A stretch of 64,000 nucleotides of DNA from Bdellovibrionota bacterium (lineage in GTDB: Bacteria; Bdellovibrionota_C; UBA2361; JAFLCA01). Both the position numbers and the translations under genes were made by a program. Within the stretch, counting starts at the first letter, position 1. Each line of letters opens with the position of its first letter. The notes under the pieces are model-generated. The model did no database searches, had not been told where the DNA came from, and was given only the letters and a program-made list of their open reading frames with translations. This document shows positions 1 through 62,130 of the stretch, in pieces. Location of the stretch: positions 2,132-66,131 of the forward strand of contig JBIKUD010000004.1 in assembly GCA_044347745.1 (NCBI GenBank). Reading direction: 5' to 3'.

Positions 1-377
1 GAAGCAACTATGGAGATACACTTACGCGCTCTATCAACCAGCATCGAGAGATAAAATTCTTTATCGATGTTACAACCAGCCTCGACGTACACCTTACGAA
101 CAAGCTTGCCCTTTTCGCCAGTCTGCGGCGTCACCAAGTTCATGCCTAAAATCTTCTCGGCGTGAGCGCGCGCTTCTGCTGGAGACTTGGCCAATTTTAC
201 CCCGCCGCCTTTTCCACGCCCACCTGCATGCACCTGGGCCTTCACCACACACACTGGGGTCTTAAGGCTATCTGCAGCAGCTTCTGCCTCTCCGGCGGTA
301 TAAGCTAAAAAGCCCTTCAACACGGGCAACCCATAACAGGCCATCAAACGCTTTGATTGATACTCATGCAAATTCAT
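1..377 (-). CDS. sucC: Succinyl-CoA synthetase beta subunit, N-terminal part (gene continues past left edge)
   Basis: Reverse translation from ATG (complement of 375-377) gives MNLHEYQSKRLMACYGLPVLKGFLAYTAGEAEAAADSLKTPVCVVKAQVHAGGRGKGGGVKLAKSPAEA..., the classic ATP-grasp N-terminus of SucC; no stop before position 1. Confidence 0.85.
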   Translation of the reverse strand, partial: MNLHEYQSKRLMACYGLPVLKGFLAYTAGEAEAAADSLKTPVCVVKAQVHAGGRGKGGGVKLAKSPAEARAHAEKILGMNLVTPQTGEKGKLVRKVYVEAGCNIDKEFYLSMLVDRARKCISIVA

Positions 378-394
378 GTACTACGCTCCAACAA

Positions 395-1195
395 TTAAAG
401 TCCGAGATATTTTTTAAAGGTCCGTCCAGTAACCTGCCGGCCCACTTCAGCAATAGATTCGGTAAGCGGGATGGTTTTAGGACAAGCCTGCACGCAGTTT
501 TGTGCATTACCACAGTCAGCTATACCGCCCTCGCCCATGAGGGCATCAAGTCGCTCACTAGATTTAAACGACCCAGTAGGATGGGAATTGAAAAGCCTCA
601 CTTGGCTAATAATCGCGGCCCCCACAAATGAATTCTCAATAGAAACTTGAGGACACACTTGCAAACACACGCCGCAGCTCATACAGGTTGAAAGTTTGTA
701 ACGCTCATCAGCCAATGCTGGTGATTGTTTAGGAGCAGCGCCTAGTGTGTGACTGCCGTCAATTTCTACCCAGGCTTTTACCTTCTTTAAATTCTCGAAC
801 ATGCGTGATCGATCTACCGCAAGGTCTCTGACCACGGGAAATTTGTTCATAGGTTCAAGAGTAATCGGCTGCTCTAACTTATCAACCAAGGCCGTGCAAC
901 CTTGGCAAGCCTTGCCATTTACGACCATAGAGCAGGCTCCACACACTTGCTCAAGGCAGTTAGATTCCCAAACTACTGGTTCGCATTTTTTTCCGGTAAT
1001 ATCGACCGGATTTTTGCGAAGTTCCATTAAGAGCGAAAGCACATTGTGCCCCGCCACATAGGGTAGCTCAAATTCTTGCCAATATGGCAGCTCGCCCGGA
1101 CCGTCTTGGCGCTTCACCTTGAGGCGAATCTTTCGATTCGATCCACTATGTGACGCATTACTCTCTGAGGCTGCATGTGAATGATGATGTCCCAT
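395..1195 (-). CDS. sdhB: Succinate dehydrogenase / fumarate reductase iron-sulfur subunit
   Basis: Three Cys clusters (CGACSMVVNGKACQGC; CMSCGVCLQVCP; CGNAQNCVQACP) typical of 2Fe-2S/4Fe-4S/3Fe-4S SdhB; lies in sdh operon context. Confidence 0.9.
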   Translation of the reverse strand: MGHHHSHAASESNASHSGSNRKIRLKVKRQDGPGELPYWQEFELPYVAGHNVLSLLMELRKNPVDITGKKCEPVVWESNCLEQVCGACSMVVNGKACQGCTALVDKLEQPITLEPMNKFPVVRDLAVDRSRMFENLKKVKAWVEIDGSHTLGAAPKQSPALADERYKLSTCMSCGVCLQVCPQVSIENSFVGAAIISQVRLFNSHPTGSFKSSERLDALMGEGGIADCGNAQNCVQACPKTIPLTESIAEVGRQVTGRTFKKYLGL

Positions 1196-9766: not shown

Positions 9767-10663
9767 CTACTCAGCTTTGTTGGCTACGCCCCAATTTAAC
9801 TTTCCACGTAGTATTTCAAAGTATGTTTTACGTGGAGAGCAGGCGAATTTAAGCAAATTATCGGCTTGTTTAATACGCACCCGGTCTCCGGTCTCTAGCT
9901 CTATTGACACCTGACCATCGACTGAACACAGCACCTTGCCGCGACAGAGAGGCACGCGTACTTCAATGCGTGAGTTCATGCCCACAATCAAAGGCCGGCT
10001 TGTCAAGGAATGAGCACAGATTGGTGTTACCAAAAACGCACTTACTTCTGGATGAACAATTGACCCCCCAGCTGCCAATGAATAGGCTGTCGAGCCCGTC
10101 GGCGTAGCCATTATTAGTCCATCGGCTCTAATTCGAACGAGATCCTCACCATCTACAGCCAAATCAAGATTAACAAGCGGAGCCTTGCTGCTCTTTTGAA
10201 TTACAAAGTCGTTCAGCCCTTGCGAAGAAAAAATACAAGTCTCTTTACCATCCTGCAGACGATGCACTTCTCCATACAGCATGCGCCGCTGCGCCGTTGG
10301 AATTGGAGTATTCTTTTCAATCAACGATTTTAAGGCCGGCATTAATTCGTGCGGGGTTAATTCAGTGAGAAACCCAAGCGTTCCAAAATTAACGCCAATC
10401 AGTAAGGGACTCAGTTTTGTAACATAGCGCGCGATGCCAATCATGGTGCCATCGCCACCAAGAATCACAATGGGATCAGCCTGAGTTGCTAACTGGTAAG
10501 CAGGAACACCAGGCACTCCGAGGATGCGGGCGCTAACATCATCCGTTTTTACTTCAAGCCCAATTTTTTTGGCCCAAGCAATAACTTCACGCCCCAGCTC
10601 TTCAGCCGCAGCAATATCAGACTTTACAACTAATCCGAGCGGGCGCCTCACTTCAGCACTCAT
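9767..10663 (-). CDS. nadK: NAD(+) kinase
   Basis: GGDGTMIG motif and NAD kinase length (298 aa); immediately upstream of recN. Confidence 0.9.
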   Translation of the reverse strand: MSAEVRRPLGLVVKSDIAAAEELGREVIAWAKKIGLEVKTDDVSARILGVPGVPAYQLATQADPIVILGGDGTMIGIARYVTKLSPLLIGVNFGTLGFLTELTPHELMPALKSLIEKNTPIPTAQRRMLYGEVHRLQDGKETCIFSSQGLNDFVIQKSSKAPLVNLDLAVDGEDLVRIRADGLIMATPTGSTAYSLAAGGSIVHPEVSAFLVTPICAHSLTSRPLIVGMNSRIEVRVPLCRGKVLCSVDGQVSIELETGDRVRIKQADNLLKFACSPRKTYFEILRGKLNWGVANKAE

Positions 10664-13971: not shown

Positions 13972-15285
13972 ATGAAAACCAATGCGTTTAATCGCCGCAT
14001 CAAAGCTTGTCTCACAATTCTAAAAAGTAGCGTCAATCAAAGCGCACTGCTGCTCTCTTCGCATCCACCCGTCATACGTAGCCATGACACCCATTATCCA
14101 TATAAACAACAAAGCGACTTCTACTATCTGACTGGTTCAGAAATACAGAATTCGGCCCTGCTAATATCGAGTAAGTTAAAACACCCCATACTTTTTGCGC
14201 CTCCGCAAGATGCACACAAGACACTTTGGGAGGGGAAACAACCCAATCCAAAAATATTGGCACAGCAAATAGGAGCAGAGCTTAAAGTAGCGAAGGACAT
14301 GAGAGCGGAAGTGCTTGCGGCGCTTCGTGGGCACGATCAGTTATTGTTTCAGAACATACCGGGAAGTCTTAGTTTCAAAATTACAAGTGAACTTATTGCC
14401 ATACCTTCCTATGCCCGAGGCAATTTACCATCGCAGTTCAGTCACTCCGATGTACTTCTGGAACGCCTACGGCTCTTTAAAGATGCTGAGGAAGTGGAAA
14501 CTATTAGAGCCGCTAACGAGATTACTTCAGAGGCACTTTTGTTTGTAGCGGCAAAAATCCAACCGGGACAATTTGAATATGAAGTAGCGAGAACCCTTGA
14601 GTACATTTTTGGCATGAACAAATGCTCCCCTGCGTTCAATTCTATCATTGCCGCCGGTAAAAACGCAGCCACGCTACACTACGAGGCGCTTAATTCGAGG
14701 ATCGGCAAAAATGATATGGTACTGATTGATTCAGGAGCTCAACTAGATAATTACTGTGCCGACATTACAAGAATGCTCCCCGCCAGCGGGCAATTCAGCC
14801 CAATCCATAAATGCGTCTACGAGACAGTTCTGGCGGCACAATACGCAGCTCTGAAAAAAGTGAGGCACGGGGTGAAAATAGCTGAAGTGTACAACGCGGC
14901 AGCTGAGGTTTTAGTGGAAGGACTCTGCGAGCTAAAGGTGCTGCGTGGCACTCGCAAATCGATTATGAAAAATAAAGCCTTTAAACCCTATTTCCCACAT
15001 GGAATTGGGCATAGCCTAGGGCTTGATGTCCACGACCTCAGTCAATTACGTGGGAACAATGAGGCCGTGCTGGAAGCCGGCATGGTTTTCACTGTTGAAC
15101 CCGGCTTATATTTTGCGAAAGCCCAGGGGCAAGTTCCCGCTTGCGGCGTGCGCTTAGAGGACAATGTACTTGTAACAAACAAAGGCTGCGAAATCTTAAG
15201 TCCAGGGTTCCCTAAAGAGACGGATGAGATTGAGGCGCTAATGGAAGCACATGCGTTCGCCGGGAAAAACCGAGAAACGCTTTAA
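13972..15285 (+). CDS. Xaa-Pro aminopeptidase (M24B family)
   Basis: M24 metal-ligand motifs ([15 protein letters not shown]; [13 protein letters not shown]; EPGLY) with N-terminal creatinase-like domain; last ~14 codons and the stop lie inside repeat-element copy 1. Confidence 0.85.
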
Positions 15286-15739
15286 ATTGCCGGAAGTTGA
15301 GCTCGTAAGGAGCCCAAAATAATTGCAAGGGCAAATCGATTTCGAGCTCAATTCCTTTCAATTATTCAATCGTTTTAAATATGCCCACCCCAGCCGCGCC
15401 ATGCGCGGCTCCCCTGAAAGGGGTGTGCGTTCATACTTTGTTCCGAAGCTCGGGACCTTATTGCGAGGTGCCTCTACGGCAGGAAAGCATTCGGCCCACA
15501 GAAGGACTCACGAAAATAGCCAGTAAGCGAGGCCTAGCGAAACTTGAGCGAGGCAAGGATGCAGGGTCAAAAAGCGCGGAGCTGTATCTATTTGGGATAC
15601 AGCGAGCACATTTTGCCCCGAAGACGCAGCATCGCTCGAGTAGCAGCAGGCCGTAGCTCTGGATATTATTGTGAGCCCTTCTATACTTCGCGCCTCGTCT
15701 GAACGCATTTTGCCGACGAACAGAAACATAAAAGAGCTG
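15254..15739 (-). repeat. Copy 1 of a 4-copy structured repeat element (minus orientation), with ~190-nt internal expansion in hairpin 1
   Basis: Shares GCGTTCAGACGAGGCGCGA...GGAACAAAGTATGAACGC core (rc at 15427-15706) and terminal sequences nearly identical to copy 4 (15254-15300 rc vs 61846-61890; 15700-15730 rc vs 61647-61680). Confidence 0.8.
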
Positions 15740-15771
15740 CGTTTGCCTTAAGACTTTGCCAAAACTAAATT

Positions 15772-17499
15772 CTACACGGTGAGCACATGCGCAATAATCT
15801 TCTTTCTAAACTCCTCGAAGCCAACTCTCTTGAGCGCCGAAACTGCTACTGCATCATACTGTGCTGATAGATTTGCCACGATCGCTGGATCTTGAGCATC
15901 AATTTTATTAAGCACGTTCACTATGGGAGTATTTCCAAGCTCCATAGTTTGTAGCGTCGCTTCAACCGCAGCTTTCTTTTCAGCTACTTCGGGGTCAGAG
16001 GCATCCAGCACGTGCACTAAAACCGCAGCATCGTATAGTTCCTCAAGCGTGGCTCGAAATGCCGTGCGAAGTTCTTCAGGTAAATCGCGGATAAAACCTA
16101 CGGTATCGGAGAGAATAACGGGAGCTAATGTTACCTGCCCTTCTGGTCCGATTTGATTGAGGGTTATGCGCCGCTGTGCCGGATCAAGGGTGGCAAATAA
16201 TTTATTCTCAGCAAGTACCGTGCTTTGGGTTAAAGCATTAAAAAAGGTACTTTTACCTACGTTGGTGTACCCAAGAATTGCCACAAGCGGGACTCCCCGA
16301 TCCTGACGTTTACTTCTTCTGAGGTGGCGTTGCTCCCCAAGCTTATCTATTCGTCGTTCTAGGTCGACGATACGATCACGAATGCGTCTGCGGCCAATTT
16401 CTAATTTTGTTTCACCTGGTCCCCGACCACCAATTCCACCACTCAAGCGCGAAAGCCCAGTATCTTTTTCAACGAGACGAGGCAGATTGTACTTAAGCTG
16501 GGCAAGCTCAACCTGCAAGCGACCTTCGCTACTCGTCGCTCGTTGAGCGAAAATATCCAAAATGAGCATGCTCCGGTCAATAACTTTAAGATCAGTCATT
16601 TTGGTAATAATGCGCCATTGTCCTGGCTTTAGTTCTCCGTCAAATATGAGCATTTCAGCGCCAAGGGCGAGACAACGGAGTACCACTTGCTCCAATTTGC
16701 CCTTACCGAGGAGCGATCGAGGATCGGGGGTTCGTCGCTGCACAAAGGTATCGACGATGGCAACTCCCGCAGTGCGGGCCAGCTCACGCAGTTCAAGCAT
16801 CGAACTTTCAACCGCTTTCGCCGATTTTTCGTAGACACCAACGAGTACTGCTTTGACTCCCTGCACCTCTTTTGCGCTTGATTGCATCGCCTGAAGCTCG
16901 GCTTCAAGCTCTGCCAAAAACTCAGCGCAATTAAACTCAAAGCGACCTAAATCTGGAACTTTTTCGGTGCGTGAAAGGGGGTCGGCTTCAAGCCCAGGGG
17001 GAACTATGTAGGCATAAGCCATGCTCGTTTTTTTCTCGTCCCCTTTCAACGAAACTACCATATCAAGGCGCAGCTTATGCAAATCGGTGAAATGGTCTTG
17101 AGGGATTTGAGGTTCAGAAGTACTCGTTGACAAATCACTAAACAAGAGTCGCAGGCGTCGCAGGCGTCCGGGCCCTAATCGGTAACGTCCCAAATCAGGA
17201 AGATACAAAATTTCGCGTGAACCAATAAAAACCTCCTCTACTCGCCCCTCGCGAGAAACAAGCATACCGATGCGGCGTTTTATGGTGTGTGCGGCGCGCA
17301 AAATTTCACGTGCTACATCCAACGGCACAATCTCATCGCTTGAAAAACGACGGGAAAATAACTTTTGCACCATGCGAATTTCGCTTGGACTAAGTCCTTT
17401 GGTATTACCTTCAATATTCTGTGACATATTATTTTGAGCGTCCTTTTTTGAGGCTGGCCGAACGGGCATTCTAGTCGCGGCTTCAAATAAGCCAAGCAA
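15772..17499 (-). CDS. hflX: GTPase HflX with long N-terminal extension
   Basis: HflX N-domain and G-domain (GYTNVGKSTFFNALT, DTVGF); 575 aa vs ~430 typical. Confidence 0.85.
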   Translation of the reverse strand: MLGLFEAATRMPVRPASKKDAQNNMSQNIEGNTKGLSPSEIRMVQKLFSRRFSSDEIVPLDVAREILRAAHTIKRRIGMLVSREGRVEEVFIGSREILYLPDLGRYRLGPGRLRRLRLLFSDLSTSTSEPQIPQDHFTDLHKLRLDMVVSLKGDEKKTSMAYAYIVPPGLEADPLSRTEKVPDLGRFEFNCAEFLAELEAELQAMQSSAKEVQGVKAVLVGVYEKSAKAVESSMLELRELARTAGVAIVDTFVQRRTPDPRSLLGKGKLEQVVLRCLALGAEMLIFDGELKPGQWRIITKMTDLKVIDRSMLILDIFAQRATSSEGRLQVELAQLKYNLPRLVEKDTGLSRLSGGIGGRGPGETKLEIGRRRIRDRIVDLERRIDKLGEQRHLRRSKRQDRGVPLVAILGYTNVGKSTFFNALTQSTVLAENKLFATLDPAQRRITLNQIGPEGQVTLAPVILSDTVGFIRDLPEELRTAFRATLEELYDAAVLVHVLDASDPEVAEKKAAVEATLQTMELGNTPIVNVLNKIDAQDPAIVANLSAQYDAVAVSALKRVGFEEFRKKIIAHVLTV

Positions 17500-44148: not shown

Positions 44149-44163
44149 CGCTTACTGTATGAG

Positions 44164-44493
44164 GAGCGTTTTTCGGATTTTCACGGAGAACGGGCGCTGT
44201 TTGAATGGGGCGTTTTTGCCCGAGGGATGAATCGAGTTTTCAACTCTTAGTTTCTCGTTCTCCCTCAAAATGCGTTCAGACGAGGCGCGAGGCTTGTGTG
44301 GCAACCGAGTGGTACAGAATGTACCTCGCAGGGAGCCTCCAAGCCTCGGAACAAAGTATGAACGCAACGAAAAGCGCATCCAGAATTGCAAGGGATTGAG
44401 CTCTTGGTGCCCCCTTCCCTGCAATGATCTAGGGCAAATCACGAGCTCAACTCCCCGCAATTCAGAGCGTTTTTCGGATTTTCACGGAGAACG
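44164..44493 (+). repeat. Copy 2 of the structured repeat element (plus orientation), flanked by perfect 29-bp direct repeats
   Basis: DRs GAGCGTTTTTCGGATTTTCACGGAGAACG at 44164-44192 and 44465-44493; hairpin 1 at 44272-44365, hairpin 2 at 44396-44450. Confidence 0.85.
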
Positions 44494-45281
44494 AACCATT
44501 TAAAGGGGATACACGGCTTCCTATACAAATGCGGGGGTATCTTATCTGCAATTTCAGCGTGAAACTCGGGAAGTTTTGACCAATGCAGTCCGGGTTTTAC
44601 ATGATGAGCTGTATGATACCCCAAGTTGCCGGTGCAGAGATTATAGGTTGGATGCATTATATTATAAGAGGCTTCATACTCATTAGGGGTATCTAATCCG
44701 GCGTGATGATAGTAAGTGTGCCAACAAGTGGCGATGTATCCCCAAGTCATAGGAAGCCAAAACACAAACAGCGCAGGCAAAGGTCTTTGCACGGTCAAGA
44801 GAAGCAGCACACAAGCCACAAGGAATGTCGCGCTTAGAAATCCGCGTTGGTACTTTGGATGCTGTCTTCCTACTTGAAAAGCTCGCCAATACCCCGTTGC
44901 CGCGATGGTAAGTGTATACTCAACGGCACCCATAGTGGTGCCGTCTTTACGCTGCCATCCTGACTCGTCTTTCTTTTGATCGGTGTAATTAATGTGATGA
45001 CCCAGCACGTGGTGCAATACCCAGGCGTTTGTCGTAATGCCTGTGTGCAAGGCATACACTATTTCGAGCATCCGATTCAGAATCAAAGATTTAAAGGTCG
45101 GAAGATGCTGGTGATGGTGATTCCAGGAGCAAATACAGGCCTTTGGGAAGAGCATTAATACGAACCAGAAGCTTAAGTACCAAGGTGAATCAACGAGGGC
45201 GTACACCAGCAAATCAAAGGCAAATAACCCCACTATAATAATAGTGGGACAACGGTCAGCCTGATAACGAAAAATGCCCAT
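44439..45281 (-). CDS. Membrane fatty-acid-desaturase-family (di-iron His-box) protein
   Basis: His boxes HHQHL, HHVLGHH, HTAHHVKP; start set to internal Met to avoid 90-bp overlap; last ~20 codons and stop come from repeat copy 2. Confidence 0.6.
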   Translation of the reverse strand: MGIFRYQADRCPTIIIVGLFAFDLLVYALVDSPWYLSFWFVLMLFPKACICSWNHHHQHLPTFKSLILNRMLEIVYALHTGITTNAWVLHHVLGHHINYTDQKKDESGWQRKDGTTMGAVEYTLTIAATGYWRAFQVGRQHPKYQRGFLSATFLVACVLLLLTVQRPLPALFVFWLPMTWGYIATCWHTYYHHAGLDTPNEYEASYNIMHPTYNLCTGNLGYHTAHHVKPGLHWSKLPEFHAEIADKIPPHLYRKPCIPFKWFVLRENPKNALNCGELSS

Positions 45282-52409: not shown

Positions 52410-52688
52410 ATGGGGTGCTCTACCCCCTGCGTACTTGGACTTTCTTTAGAGCACTTAGTGGCATATACTAAGCAAATGGGTGGCGATAGTTTTTCATTTT
52501 GGCGTTTCGACTTGGCTCAAGTCTTGAAGGCGCTTTTTGTTATTTTGCTTCTTAGAGGCATTACCATCTTGTTGGGTTTTGAGCAGCAAGTGCCAATTGT
52601 TGACGACATTCTAAATGTGCTTGTTAATGCGGCTAAGGTGATGGCAGAAGCGATTAGTGGGTTTGTGCGCGGCCGCACAAGCTTCTAA
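52410..52688 (+). CDS. Small hypothetical membrane protein (92 aa), doubtful
   Basis: ORF ending exactly at repeat copy 3; hydrophobic stretch; no homology recognised. Confidence 0.25.
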   Translation: MGCSTPCVLGLSLEHLVAYTKQMGGDSFSFWRFDLAQVLKALFVILLLRGITILLGFEQQVPIVDDILNVLVNAAKVMAEAISGFVRGRTSF

Positions 52689-52689
52689 G

Positions 52690-53029
52690 CGCGCTGTGAA
52701 AAACGTAAAAATGCTTTAAATTGCAGAAATTCCGGCTCGAGAAAAACAGGACTCTCTTGACGGATAATTTGTAGCTCGAGCCCAATTCCTTGCAATTTTG
52801 GCCGCATTTTTACTCGCGTTCATACTTTGTTCCGAGGCTCGAAGTCTCCCTGCGAGGTGCATTGAGCACCACTCAGTCGCCATCAAGCCTCGCGCCTCGT
52901 CTGAACGCATTTTGACAGCGCGCTCAGAAAACAACTAACTCGCCTTGCACGATTTTCAAGAAGCCCATCTGTTTTTGTAAATCTTAAATACGCGCTGTGA
53001 AAAACGTAAAAATGCTTTAAATTGCAGAA
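52690..53029 (-). repeat. Copy 3 of the structured repeat element (minus orientation), flanked by perfect 39-bp direct repeats
   Basis: DRs CGCGCTGTGAAAAACGTAAAAATGCTTTAAATTGCAGAA at 52690-52728 and 52991-53029; hairpin 1 rc at 52816-52908. Confidence 0.85.
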
Positions 53030-53043
53030 GTTCTTCTGCTCGC

Positions 53044-54081
53044 CTACTTTGCTTTGTCGTCCTGATCATACTCGTCGACTATTTCGTGCCCAACGACCTC
53101 TTCGAGAATATCTTCCAGAGTAACAATTCCCGCTAACCCGCCGTGCTCATCAACAACCGAGCAAATATGCTCATTATATTCAAACATCTTAAGCAAGATA
53201 TTATCCAGACGCGCAAGCTCTGGAACCGCGGTAAGCGGTCGCGCCAGATCCTTTAAGGTTGCATTTTTATTGCCGGAGACTATTTCTCTGTATAAATCAC
53301 GCTGGCGCACATAACCTGTAAGATGCTCTGGCTCGGCCTCGTTATAAATTGGCACTCGGGTGTATTCCCACTCAAGAATTGAGGATGAGATATCCCCCAG
53401 CGTTTTATCCTCAGGAACTCGAAATACGACCACGCGCGGAGTAAGCACATCCCGCACTATTTTCTTATCAAGGCCAATGACATTATGAATTACCGAACCT
53501 TCTAGCTTATCAAGCGACCCTTCTCGGGTGCCCAGTTGAGCCAACGCCAATACCTCTTCATGTGAAACTTGGGGAGCACTTGCGCCAAAATGTAAGCGTT
53601 TTGAAATCTGAACAGAGACCCAAATTAAGGGAGAAAATAGTTTAACCAAAAAACTTAAGGGGATTGCAGCAAAAATCGCTACCTGTTTGGCATATCGCAC
53701 CCCAATAACCTTAGGGGATACTTCAGCAATGTAGAGCACCAAAATTGAAAAAGTGGCGGAAAATAAAATGAGCCCGAGCTCCCCCCACATATCACCGGCT
53801 ACCGCTCCTGCTACTGTAGCGCCTATCGTGTTCGCTCCAGAAGAAAGAATTAAGATAGCGGTAATCGGTCGTTCAACGTCACGCTTAAGCTGCTGAAGCA
53901 CCCTGCCAGCGCGACCACCTGTATAGGCGAGCTGCTGCACGTAGGTCATGGGCACGGCAAAAAGTGCGGCCTCAACCACAGAGCAAACAAATGCTACTAG
54001 CAAAGAAAGTGAGACGGACAGAATAAGCAACGTGAGCATGTCGGAATAAGATAAGCTAAAAAGCCACGCCTTGTCACGCAC
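53044..54081 (-). CDS. CNNM/CorB-type transporter-associated protein (DUF21 transmembrane domain + CBS pair)
   Basis: 4 TM DUF21 N-terminus then two CBS motifs; lacks CorC_HlyC C-terminal domain. Confidence 0.8.
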   Translation of the reverse strand: MRDKAWLFSLSYSDMLTLLILSVSLSLLVAFVCSVVEAALFAVPMTYVQQLAYTGGRAGRVLQQLKRDVERPITAILILSSGANTIGATVAGAVAGDMWGELGLILFSATFSILVLYIAEVSPKVIGVRYAKQVAIFAAIPLSFLVKLFSPLIWVSVQISKRLHFGASAPQVSHEEVLALAQLGTREGSLDKLEGSVIHNVIGLDKKIVRDVLTPRVVVFRVPEDKTLGDISSSILEWEYTRVPIYNEAEPEHLTGYVRQRDLYREIVSGNKNATLKDLARPLTAVPELARLDNILLKMFEYNEHICSVVDEHGGLAGIVTLEDILEEVVGHEIVDEYDQDDKAK

Positions 54082-59560: not shown

Positions 59561-59638
59561 GTCCCTATCGTCTAGCCCGGTCTAGGACGTCAGCCTTTCA
59601 CGTTGAAAACACGGGTTCGAATCCCGTTAGGGACACCA
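59561..59638 (+). tRNA. tRNA-Glu: tRNA-Glu (anticodon UUC)
   Basis: GTCCCTA acceptor stem pairing with TAGGGAC, anticodon loop CUUUCAC, T-arm GGGTTCGAATCCC, discriminator A + CCA; closely resembles canonical bacterial tRNA-Glu. Confidence 0.85.
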
Positions 59639-61549: not shown

Positions 61550-61585
61550 AAGCGTCACTGTGGTTATATAAGTGGTAATAAAAAA

Positions 61586-61611
61586 GGGCCCTCTCCGGGG
61601 CCCTTTCTATT
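61586..61611. terminator. Rho-independent terminator (bidirectional type)
   Basis: AAAAAA-GGGCCC-tctccg-GGGCCC-TTTCTATT: perfect 6-bp GC stem flanked by A-tract and U-tract. Confidence 0.55.
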
Positions 61612-61632
61612 AAAGTAAAGCCTTGAGGCGAA

Positions 61633-61896
61633 CTTAGCTTTTTCACGTTTCTGTTCGTCGGCAAAATGCGTTCAGACGAGGCGCGAGGTTCGTGGGCCGA
61701 ATGAGTGGTACTATACGTACCTCGCAATGAGGCCCCGAGCCTCGGAACAAAGTATGAACGCAACGAAAAACGCTCCTAGAATTGCTAGGAATTGAGCTCA
61801 AAATCGTTCTTTTTCCTGCAATAATGCGAGGCTTTTAGCGAGCTCAACTTCCTGCAATTTAGAGCGTTTTTCGGTTTTTCCCGGCGAACCTACTCT
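61633..61896 (+). repeat. Copy 4 of the structured repeat element (plus orientation), terminal repeats degenerate
   Basis: Hairpin 1 at 61668-61761, hairpin 2 TTGAGCTC...GAGCTCAA at 61791-61845, right-end block CAATTTAGAGCGTTTTTCGGTTTTTCCCGGCGAACC. Confidence 0.8.
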
Positions 61897-61899
61897 TTT

Positions 61900-62130
61900 T
61901 TATGGGGCTTGCGGCCTCTCCTCTGAAATCATAGCCATAATCCGTTCTTTACCTTTCAGTTTTTTCAATTTCAATTTTTTGGCCTCAATCTCCTCTACGG
62001 ATGTCATAAACTTACGCTTTTCAAACCCCTCCAGAGCCTCTTCAAGCCGTTGATGCTCCTCATAAAGCCTTCGTAATGCCACATTCGTTTTGCTGGCTTC
62101 AAGTATTCGTTCTCTTTCCGTATTTTCCAT
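61900..62130 (-). CDS. DUF465 (YdcH-like) small coiled-coil protein
   Basis: 76-aa helical protein resembling DUF465 family (RLYEEHQRLEEALE...); stop abuts repeat copy 4. Confidence 0.5.
   Translation of the reverse strand: MENTERERILEASKTNVALRRLYEEHQRLEEALEGFEKRKFMTSVEEIEAKKLKLKKLKGKERIMAMISEERPQAP

What the first reader, a model, noticed from the sequence alone, without database searches (positions are those of the whole stretch)
61633..61896. All four element copies sit at gene 3' ends in one fixed relative orientation
In every copy the end carrying hairpin 2 and the CAATTTAGAGCGTTTTTCGG-type block abuts the stop of a gene transcribed toward it, so the upstream gene would read the element antisense to the consensus strand. 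Copy 1 abuts the aminopeptidase (+) and copy 2 the desaturase (-). Copy 3 abuts the small ORF ending at 52688 (+), and its other end abuts the CNNM gene (-). Copy 4 abuts DUF465 (-), whose stop is 61897-61899. A 4/4 consistent polarity suggests function as a 3'-UTR element, terminator or antisense module, or an insertion mechanism coupled to transcription polarity or to a motif near stop codons.
Basis: seen in the sequence. Interest (0 to 1): 0.7.

Follow-up and report, generated by a model that had tools for sequence, protein, structure and literature searches.

The report
Structured mobile repeat at gene ends
The four repeats are copies of a small, strongly folded, non-coding mobile element that inserts at or just past gene 3' ends, and the reported "fixed orientation" follows automatically from all four sitting between genes that point at each other.

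Summary
The four copies are real: c1 15255-15781(-), c2 44164-44492(+), c3 52689-53033(-), c4 about 61612-61889(+). All four lie between convergent genes. In such a gap, whichever gene faces the element's 3' end is transcribed toward it and reads it antisense, so the 4/4 polarity is true by geometry.

I found four more copies in related contigs. Their CAATTT end faces the next gene's start, and the element is sense to both neighbours.

Two closely related strains have empty sites. These show the element is an insertion of about 292 nt, or 527 nt in a long form. It makes a 9-10 bp target duplication and has no terminal inverted repeats. At c1 the insertion rewrote the C-termini of both flanking genes. 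A more distant relative lacks c4.

The eight copies are only 66-88% identical, yet they keep a Y-shaped fold. Of 82 predicted pairs, 22 carry compensatory changes (0 of 500 shuffles reach this). The fold is more stable on the consensus strand.

Rfam has no match, and no reverse transcriptase or transposase gene is in view.

Verdict: a new variant of bacterial small non-autonomous mobile repeats, enriched at gene 3' ends. The mobilising mechanism is unresolved. A copy-from-the-3'-end, retroposon-like route is possible but unproven.

The parts
15255..15781 (-). Copy c1, long form (527 nt). Sense-strand ends are 5'-CACCGTGTAG ... CCCGGCGAAC-3'. It carries a 183-nt closed extra arm inside arm A and a 40-nt GC hairpin after P2.
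   Evidence: Boundaries come from alignment with the empty site L061. Homology. The fold keeps P1 and P2, with the insertion as a closed arm.
15246..15254 (.). Left copy of the c1 target-site duplication, AGCACATGC(G) on the + strand. It is 9 bp if the element ends in C, 10 bp otherwise.
   Evidence: The sequence is present once in empty site L061 (AGAACATGCG) and twice in the window (10/10 match).
15782..15790 (.). Right copy of the c1 target-site duplication.
44164..44492 (+). Copy c2. A 29-nt fragment of the element's 3' tail (44164-44192) is followed by a full short-form unit ending at 44492. The two tail copies are 301 nt apart. The last 51 nt are read by the desaturase ORF on the - strand.
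   Evidence: (families D3, D4).
52689..53033 (-). Copy c3. A 44-nt 3'-tail fragment plus about 10 nt of flank-like sequence (52980-53033) is followed by a full unit ending at 52689. Spacing is 301 nt. Its 3' end abuts the stop 52686-52688, and its 5' end lies 10 nt from the CNNM stop 53044-53046.
   Evidence: (family D2).
61612..61889 (+). Short form, lacking about 25 nt of the 5' leader present in c1, c6 and c7. It follows a GC hairpin with T-run at 61581-61610 and ends 10 nt before the DUF465 stop 61900-61902.
   Evidence: It is absent from the syntenic locus of a related species, L064.
61653..61666 (+). c4 P1, 5' strand (GTTCGTCGGC-AAAA). It pairs with 61876-61889.
   Evidence: helix 1 has 13 pairs, 5 with double changes, and 99% of cells are paired.
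61667..61762 (+). c4 arm A. It comprises P2 (GCGTTCA/TGAACGC), the invariant internal loop (GACGAGGCG / GAACAAAGTA), and P3 with its apical hairpin.
   Evidence: Both core blocks are identical in 7 of 8 copies.
It is a long imperfect hairpin (CGAAAAACGC...GAGCTC / GAGCTC...GCGTTTTTCG) with a variable tip.
   Evidence: helices 6-9, with 11 pairs showing double changes.
61876..61889 (+). c4 P1, 3' strand, which is also the constant 3' terminus of the element (TTTT-CCCGGCGAAC).
   Evidence: All 8 copies end in this block. The base after ...GA(A/G) is C in 8 of 8 copies and pairs with an invariant G.

Best explanation
The repeats are copies of a non-coding, non-autonomous mobile element. The short form is about 292 nt and the long form about 527 nt.

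Shown:
- It inserts with a 9-10 bp target-site duplication and has no terminal inverted repeats.
- It is present or absent between closely related strains.
- Surviving copies lie at, or a few to a few tens of nucleotides past, the stop codon of a gene on the same strand. The other side is either a convergent gene's stop (5 of 7) or the start of the next gene in the same direction (2 of 7). No copy is in a divergent (promoter) gap.
- Insertions into overlapping or abutting convergent gene ends replace the last codons with element-encoded residues.
- The copies have diverged to 66-88% identity. They still keep a Y-shaped fold: closing stem P1, a conserved arm A with an invariant internal loop, and a long arm B. 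The fold is maintained by compensatory changes and is more stable on one strand.

Inferred:
- The fold of a single strand of fixed polarity (RNA or ssDNA) is what a trans-acting mobilising enzyme, encoded elsewhere, recognises.
- Copying is anchored at the constant 3' end. This would explain the invariant 3' terminus, the heterogeneous 5' ends and the lack of inverted repeats.
- The bias toward gene 3' ends reflects mainly which insertions are tolerated in a compact genome. A weak target preference may add to it, since the three recognisable targets look like CGCNTGTG.

For: Copies and context:
-.
- Additional copies: c5 (L052), c6 (L054), c7 (L059), c8 (L063).

Empty sites:
- L061 against the window gives a perfect duplication CGCATGTGCT and a 526/527-bp insert. 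It changes aminopeptidase ...EALMAEHAQ* to ...[17 protein letters not shown] and truncates HflX.
- L067 against L052: the gspC-gspD gap is 94 nt empty and 395 nt filled, a difference of 301 nt. CGCTTGTTGG occurs once in the empty site. The filled site has CGCTATTG and CGCTTGTTGG.
- The c6 flanks match at 8 of 10 positions.
- c4 is absent from syntenic L064.
- No copy was found in the held sequence of the related strains and species (L061, L062, L064-L067).

Structure:
- z = -8.2 for c4.
- 82 pairs, 91.8% of cells paired, 22 pairs with changes on both sides against 9.8 +/- 2.1 in shuffles (0/500).
- Covariation score 0.212 against at most 0.079 for slid controls.

Strand:
- Consensus energy is -83.7 (sense) against -64.6 (antisense) on the same alignment.
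- 7 of 8 copies fold better in sense.
- G.U to A.C counts are 45:12, and 5:0 and 2:0 in P1 and P2.

Placement:
- Junction census.
- 5'-end distances from the upstream same-strand stop: -9, 15, 10, 62, 16, 3-12 and 36 nt.

Other:
- No Rfam family matches.
- No promoter or terminator consensus.
- Several metagenome contigs break at the element, as expected for a dispersed repeat.
Against: - There are only 8 copies, and only 2 are informative for orientation.
- A target duplication is clear for c1, c5 and c6, but not detectable for c2, c3, c4 or c7.
- No mobilising gene was seen. The window and about 150 kb of related loci contain no RT, transposase or integrase hits.
- The 5'-end heterogeneity rests on one truncated copy (c4) and two partial-dimer copies (c2, c3). 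Later deletions or duplications could also explain these.
- The strand preference comes partly from a structure predicted on the sense strand.
- Selection and targeting cannot be separated with these data.
Confidence: 0.72

Rival explanations
1. It is an ordinary DDE-transposase MITE. A deletion derivative of an insertion sequence is cut and pasted by that IS's transposase, and the hairpins are by-products of its ends.
For: - A 9-10 bp target duplication, small size, multiple copies and intergenic location are typical of bacterial MITEs (review PMC2229807).
- A 9-bp duplication matches several IS families (my own knowledge).
Against: - The termini are not inverted repeats: 5' CACCGTGTAG against 3' ...CCCGGCGAAC.
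- The only end-to-end complementarity, P1, starts about 60-65 nt inside the 5' end, and it covaries instead of being sequence-conserved.
- The invariant sequence is an internal loop, not the ends.
- The 5' ends are heterogeneous while the 3' end is constant.
- The fold is strand-asymmetric.
Confidence: 0.2
2. The element is a host 3'-UTR, terminator or antisense module whose fixed polarity relative to the upstream gene is functional.
For: - All copies lie next to stop codons.
- Arm B has an A-run, long hairpin and T-run layout that resembles a bidirectional terminator.
- Co-transcribed repeats such as ERIC affect mRNA stability in an orientation-dependent way (PMC2229807).
Against: - The polarity is tautological for convergent gaps.
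- c5 and c6 contradict the stated rule.
- The element is present or absent between close strains and carries target duplications.
- c4 sits downstream of a separate hairpin with T-run.
- The simple terminator scan finds nothing conserved.
- c5 sits inside the gspC-gspD gene pair, where a terminator would be harmful.
Confidence: 0.08
3. It is a multi-copy structured small-RNA gene family with a cellular function, for example protein sequestration or a ribozyme. The family would have spread by duplication, not by a dedicated transposition mechanism.
For: - Strong covariation, an invariant internal loop, expansion segments at arm A in c1, c6 and c8, and a strand-specific fold.
Against: - No own promoter consensus.
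- Precise insertions with target duplications, and insertion into coding 3' ends.
- No Rfam relative.
- No copies in about 36 kb of related-species sequence.
Confidence: 0.1

Closest known systems
Bacterial MITE-like small mobile repeats (Correia/NEMIS, ERIC/IRU, RUP, RPE, YPAL), as reviewed by Delihas 2008, PMC2229807
   Same: - Small, non-coding, multi-copy and non-autonomous, and mostly intergenic.
- Makes target-site duplications.
- Transcripts fold into long, stable stem-loops closed by 5'-3' pairing.
- Some copies are fused in frame to the ends of host ORFs and co-transcribed with neighbours.
   Different: - Those elements are about 100-200 bp, have terminal inverted repeats and usually TA at the termini.
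- This one is 292-527 nt and has no terminal inverted repeat.
- It has an unpaired leader of about 60 nt outside the closing stem.
- It has a branched Y fold with an invariant internal loop.
- Its stems covary between copies.
Caulobacter/Brucella CIR (CerM-associated intergenic repeat)
   Same: It is listed as lacking terminal inverted repeats and as folding into two independent arms instead of one hairpin. Its mobility mechanism is unknown.
   Different: - CIR is defined by a GANTC methylation motif.
- It has no demonstrated target duplication.
- No sequence or size similarity was tested or seen here.
REP/REPIN elements mobilised by RAYT, and IS200/IS605-derived palindrome-associated elements
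   Same: - Structure, not sequence, is conserved.
- Logic is single-strand and strand-specific.
- Enriched at gene 3' ends and convergent gaps (my own knowledge).
   Different: - Those make no target duplication.
- They are much shorter (REP 20-40 nt, REPIN about 100 nt).
- They insert next to a fixed 4-5 nt target.
- Here a 9-10 bp duplication is shown by two empty sites.
Eukaryotic SINEs and other non-autonomous retroposons copied by target-primed reverse transcription
   Same: - Structured and non-coding.
- No inverted repeats.
- Target duplication of about 10 bp.
- Constant 3' end with variable 5' end.
- Diverged subfamilies.
- Insertion polymorphism.
   Different: - No poly-A or simple-repeat tail.
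- No internal promoter detected.
- No reverse transcriptase partner in view.
- No such element class is known in bacteria; a literature search found none.

Membership tests
DDE-type bacterial MITE | Terminal inverted repeats at the two extreme ends | tested here: not met
   The ends defined by the empty site are 5' CACCGTGTAGAATT and ...TTTCCCGGCGAAC 3'. The reverse complement of the 3' end does not match the 5' end.
DDE-type bacterial MITE | Target-site duplication of fixed length | tested here: inconclusive
   c1 is perfect at 9-10 bp, c5 is 9-10 bp with a decayed 5' copy, and c6 matches at 8/10. None is detectable for c2, c3, c4 or c7.
DDE-type bacterial MITE | A parent insertion sequence with the same termini in the genome | not testable with these tools
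   Only about 200 kb of this organism could be fetched, and no transposase was seen in it.
REP/REPIN or IS200/IS605-derived element | No target duplication; insertion next to a short fixed target; short palindromic unit | tested here: not met
   A duplication is shown at two empty sites, and the unit is 292-527 nt with a branched fold.
Any Rfam RNA family, including HEARO/omega RNA, group II intron domains, small ribozymes and Y RNA | A covariance-model match at or near the gathering score | tested here: not met
   The whole window at gathering threshold gave only a tRNA. c2 and c1 at E-value threshold gave nothing credible.
Intrinsic (Rho-independent) terminator | A short GC-rich hairpin directly followed by a T-run, conserved across copies | tested here: not met
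   The consensus scan finds no conserved site on the sense strand and only chance-level sites on the antisense strand. Arm B is a hairpin of about 110 nt whose T-run is paired in P1. Function was not tested experimentally.
Retroposon copied by target-primed reverse transcription (SINE-like) | Constant 3' end with 5' truncations or heterogeneous 5' junctions | tested here: inconclusive
   The 3' block is identical or near-identical in 8 of 8 copies. c4 lacks about 25 nt of leader. c2 and c3 carry a 29- and a 44-nt 3'-tail fragment upstream of a full unit, at a period of 301 nt, which equals unit plus duplication. The numbers are small, and deletion or duplication could mimic this.
Retroposon copied by target-primed reverse transcription (SINE-like) | A reverse-transcriptase-encoding partner, and an RNA intermediate | not testable with these tools
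   No RT domain occurs in the fetched loci, and no transcript data are available.
Group II intron (ORF-less) | 5' GUGYG, domain V/VI, no target duplication, at least about 600 nt | tested here: not met
   The element is 292-527 nt, makes a duplication and has no Rfam intron hit.

The most novel reading that the evidence does not exclude
The element is a bacterial SINE-like retroposon. Read-through transcription from the upstream gene would produce a folded sense RNA, which a reverse transcriptase encoded elsewhere recognises through the invariant arm-A loop. The RNA would be copied from its fixed 3' end at a staggered chromosomal nick. This would account for several features together:
- the 9-10 bp duplication without inverted repeats;
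- the constant 3' terminus;
- the truncated (c4) and template-switch-like (c2, c3) 5' junctions;
- the strand-specific covariation;
- the sense orientation behind genes;
- the high divergence between copies, of which at least c1 is recent (perfect duplication, absent from a close strain).
Probability: 0.2. Interest if true: 0.9.

Novelty: new variant of a known kind. Interest (0 to 1): 0.5.

Why it matters
The specific claim of a fixed polarity at gene 3' ends does not hold up as evidence of function.

The underlying element is still of interest, for three reasons:
- It is an undescribed, highly structured mobile repeat without terminal inverted repeats. It is polymorphic between strains.
- It rewrites the C-termini of housekeeping genes and separates overlapping convergent genes.
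- It breaks metagenome assemblies, and it seeds spurious hypothetical proteins in public databases.

Its combination of features is not explained by the usual bacterial transposition chemistries. These features are a target duplication, a constant 3' end, variable 5' ends and strand-specific covariation. If the mobilising enzyme turns out to be a reverse transcriptase or a structure-guided recombinase, this would be a new class of bacterial mobile element and a possible tool.

Tried and rejected
Searches for more copies that found nothing:
- Exact-word scans with the invariant core returned only chance hits inside unrelated coding sequence. These were genome contigs with a 19-mer (checked), metagenome contigs with an 18-mer, and viral contigs with a 16-mer and two degenerate patterns. 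Later copies (c7, c8) showed that the core varies by single bases, so exact words were too strict. Both large scans were then spent.
- blastn against phage and plasmid collections found no match.
- A 1999-aa chimera of all reading frames of the element used as a protein query returned nothing, not even known spurious ORFs. That search was wasted.

Searches that worked:
- Alignments of single-frame spurious ORFs found copies. These gave P0001, P0002 and P0025, leading to c5, c6 and c8.
- Members of 90% protein clusters of flanking genes gave the empty sites.

Other negatives:
- Rfam at gathering and E-value thresholds gave nothing.
- L062, a related strain downstream of the cyclase gene, is not syntenic, so c2 has no empty site.
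- A search for solo 3'-tail fragments elsewhere in all held sequence found only the two already seen in c2 and c3.

Ideas considered and dropped:
- A CRISPR-like repeat-spacer-repeat reading of the 29-44-nt direct repeats. The repeats are simply the element's own tail.
- Integron attC, dif/Xer elements and IS91/Helitron. All lack a 9-10 bp duplication.
- Hammerhead, hairpin-ribozyme and K-turn motifs in the arm-A loop, checked by eye only. No convincing match.

Full report
**1. The observation**

The motif CAATTTAGAGCGTTTTTCGG and the surrounding sequence recur four times in the window.

| Copy | Coordinates | Strand |
|---|---|---|
| c1 | 15255-15781 | - |
| c2 | 44164-44492 | + |
| c3 | 52689-53033 | - |
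| c4 | about 61612-61889 | + |

They are Xaa-Pro aminopeptidase(+)/HflX(-), a His_biosynth cyclase(+)/fatty-acid desaturase(-), a 92-aa ORF(+)/CNNM-CBS(-), and a 144-aa ORF(+)/DUF465(-).

Every copy therefore lies between convergent genes. The end with hairpin 2 is at or inside the facing gene's stop. For c1 the stop is 28 nt inside the element, for c2 about 51 nt inside, for c3 the gap is 0 nt, and for c4 it is 10 nt.

Two details differ from the finding. The DUF465 stop is 61900-61902. In c2 and c3 the same tail block is also present at the other end, as a direct repeat 301 nt upstream.

**2. Why the 4/4 polarity carries no information**

Between convergent genes, both neighbours are transcribed toward the element. 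Whichever one faces the element's 3' end reads it antisense, and the other reads it sense. This holds for either orientation of the element.

The non-trivial fact is the placement. A rough gene map of the window has about 9 convergent, 9 divergent and 37 tandem junctions. All four copies occupy convergent ones, which gives p of about 1e-3.

**3. More copies, including informative ones**

Exact-word scans of the public collections failed. Gene callers, however, had predicted spurious ORFs inside other copies. Searching with those reading frames and extending from window-edge genes gave four more copies.

| Copy | Locus and position | Context |
|---|---|---|
| c5 | L052 9937-10230(-) | Between gspC and gspD, both on the - strand |
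| c6 | L054 9598-10123(-) | Long form; 12 nt after the stop of an FHA-domain ORF (10136-10576, -) and upstream of an ABC-F gene (-) |
| c7 | L059 705-1000(-) | Between a + gene ending at 702 and triosephosphate isomerase (-) |
| c8 | L063 about 75-437(+) | Divergent copy on a 971-nt contig, with a convergent gene downstream |

c5 and c6 are the only copies in same-direction gaps. In both, the element is sense to its neighbours and its CAATTT end faces the start of the next gene.

With two cases (chance 0.25) this does not establish the opposite rule either. Overall there are 5 convergent, 2 tandem and 0 divergent contexts. In all seven known contexts, the 5' end lies from 9 nt inside to 62 nt past the stop of a same-strand gene.

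**4. It is a mobile insertion**

Three comparisons with related genomes show this.

- *c1.* A related strain (L061, aminopeptidase about 93% identical) has the aminopeptidase and HflX genes overlapping by 50 nt, with no element.
  - The alignment shows a 526/527-bp insert flanked by a perfect direct duplication, CGCATGTGCT on the element strand. This sequence is present once in the empty site.
  - The insertion changed the aminopeptidase C-terminus from ...EALMAEHAQ* to ...[17 protein letters not shown]. It also cut off the HflX C-terminus.
- *c5.* A second empty site (L067) has a 94-nt gspC-gspD gap, against 395 nt in L052.
  - The 301-nt difference is flanked by CGCTATTG and CGCTTGTTGG, where the empty site has one CGCTTGTTGG.
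- *c4.* A more distant syntenic contig (L064) has only 88 nt between the orthologues that flank c4, and no element.

The c6 flanks match at 8 of 10 positions. No duplication is recognisable for c2, c3, c4 or c7.

The base following ...GGCGAA is C in all eight copies and pairs with an invariant G in P1. The element therefore probably ends ...GGCGAAC, and the duplication is 9 bp.

The termini (5' CACCGTG..., 3' ...GGCGAAC) are not inverted repeats. The 301-nt spacing of the tail repeats in c2 and c3 equals one unit plus its duplication. These two loci therefore look like a 3' fragment of one unit followed head-to-tail by a full unit. c4 lacks about 25 nt of the 5' leader. In short, the 3' end is constant and the 5' end is not.

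**5. Structure**

c4 folds far better than shuffles (-111.6 kcal/mol, z = -8.2). Eight copies, with lineage-specific insertions trimmed, align at 66-88% pairwise identity. They share a Y-shaped consensus with three parts:

- a closing stem, P1;
- arm A, made of P2, the invariant internal loop GACGAGGCG/GAACAAAGUA, and P3;
- arm B, a long hairpin.

Of 82 pairs, 91.8% of cells are paired. Twenty-two pairs show changes on both sides, against 9.8 +/- 2.1 in shuffles (0 of 500 reach the observed value). Slid controls give a covariation score of at most 0.079, against 0.212 observed.

The long form (c1, c6) adds a 183-nt closed arm inside arm A and a 40-nt GC hairpin. c8 has a different 129-nt insertion nearby. 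Such expansion segments are typical of folded nucleic acids.

The fold is strand-biased in three ways:

- Consensus energy is -83.7 (sense) against -64.6 (antisense).
- Seven of 8 copies are more stable in sense.
- G.U to A.C counts are 45:12.

Rfam has no match. No sigma-70-like promoter or canonical terminator is conserved.

**6. Mechanism**

Shown: the element transposes with a short target duplication, is polymorphic between strains, is placed at gene 3' ends, keeps a conserved strand-specific fold, and has no inverted repeats.

Inferred: a trans-acting enzyme recognises the folded single strand and copies or inserts it anchored at the 3' end. The 3'-end bias is largely survivorship in a compact genome, because promoter gaps and gene bodies are not tolerated. 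A weak target preference may add to it (CGCATGTG, CGCTTGTT and CTCCCGTG at the three recognisable targets).

No reverse transcriptase, transposase or integrase is encoded in the window or in the other fetched loci. The partner is therefore unknown.

A classical DDE MITE is the main rival. It is weakened by the absence of terminal inverted repeats and by the covariation. A host terminator or antisense module is unlikely, given the presence/absence polymorphism and the copy inside the gspC-gspD pair.

**7. Comparison with known elements, and verdict**

The closest known elements are the bacterial MITE-like small mobile repeats (Correia, ERIC, RUP, RPE, YPAL, and the TIR-less two-armed CIR; PMC2229807). 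They share with this element the small size, co-transcription and ORF-end fusions.

This element differs in four ways: its size, its branched covarying fold, its lack of inverted repeats, and its asymmetric ends. I class it as a new variant of a known kind.

The enrichment at 3' ends is real.

The most novel reading not excluded is a bacterial SINE-like retroposon. I put this at about 0.2.

Noticed in passing
L061 3419-3468: In the strain without c1, the aminopeptidase(+) and HflX(-) coding regions overlap by 50 nt at their 3' ends. The element insertion separates them and gives both proteins new C-termini.
   Followed up: yes
window 61581-61610: A GC-rich hairpin with a T-run (AAAAAAGGGCCCTCTCCGGGGCCCTTTCTATT) lies directly upstream of c4. 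It looks like the terminator of the 144-aa ORF. The simple terminator scan did not list it. The related species L064 has a similar hairpin at the same place.
   Followed up: partly
window 15381-15656, 44152-44460, 44270-44503; L052 10001-10258; L054 10001-10255; L063 50-349: ORFs lying wholly or mostly inside element copies are present in public protein collections as 'hypothetical protein' (P0001, P0002, P0023-P0025). They are artefacts of the repeat. In L054 one such call masks a real FHA-domain gene on the other strand (10136-10576).
   Followed up: yes
L004, L006, L009, L010 (contig ends about 20 nt after the aminopeptidase stop): Several independent metagenome assemblies break at the edge of c1, as expected if the element is a dispersed repeat at high copy number in this genome.
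   Followed up: partly
window 15486-15668 and 15383-15422; L054 equivalents; L063 108-236: Lineage-specific expansion segments occur in arm A. c1 and c6 share a 183-nt closed arm plus a 40-nt GC hairpin (CACCCC...GGGGTG). c8 has an unrelated 129-nt insertion at a slightly different point. Their content and origin are unexplained, and Rfam has no hit.
   Followed up: partly
window about 26276-52340: A large polysaccharide/O-antigen-type gene cluster. It includes Wzy_C ligase, Bac_transf, DegT aminotransferase, split transketolase N/C, methyltransferase, formyltransferase, Polysacc_synt_3, and a FlaA1/EpsC epimerase. Several large ORFs in it have no Pfam match (384, 743, 489 and 382 aa). c2 and c3 sit inside and at the end of it.
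   Followed up: partly
window 59561-59635: A single tRNA gene (Rfam RF00005, 62 bits). It is not associated with any element copy.
   Followed up: no
window 52679-52732 vs 52980-53033, and 44164-44209 vs 44465-44510: The direct repeats of c2 and c3 extend about 10-20 nt beyond the element's 3' end into flank-like sequence, at lower identity. The duplicated unit therefore seems to be 'tail plus target'. Whether this reflects a second insertion into the duplicated target, unequal exchange, or template switching is unresolved.
   Followed up: partly
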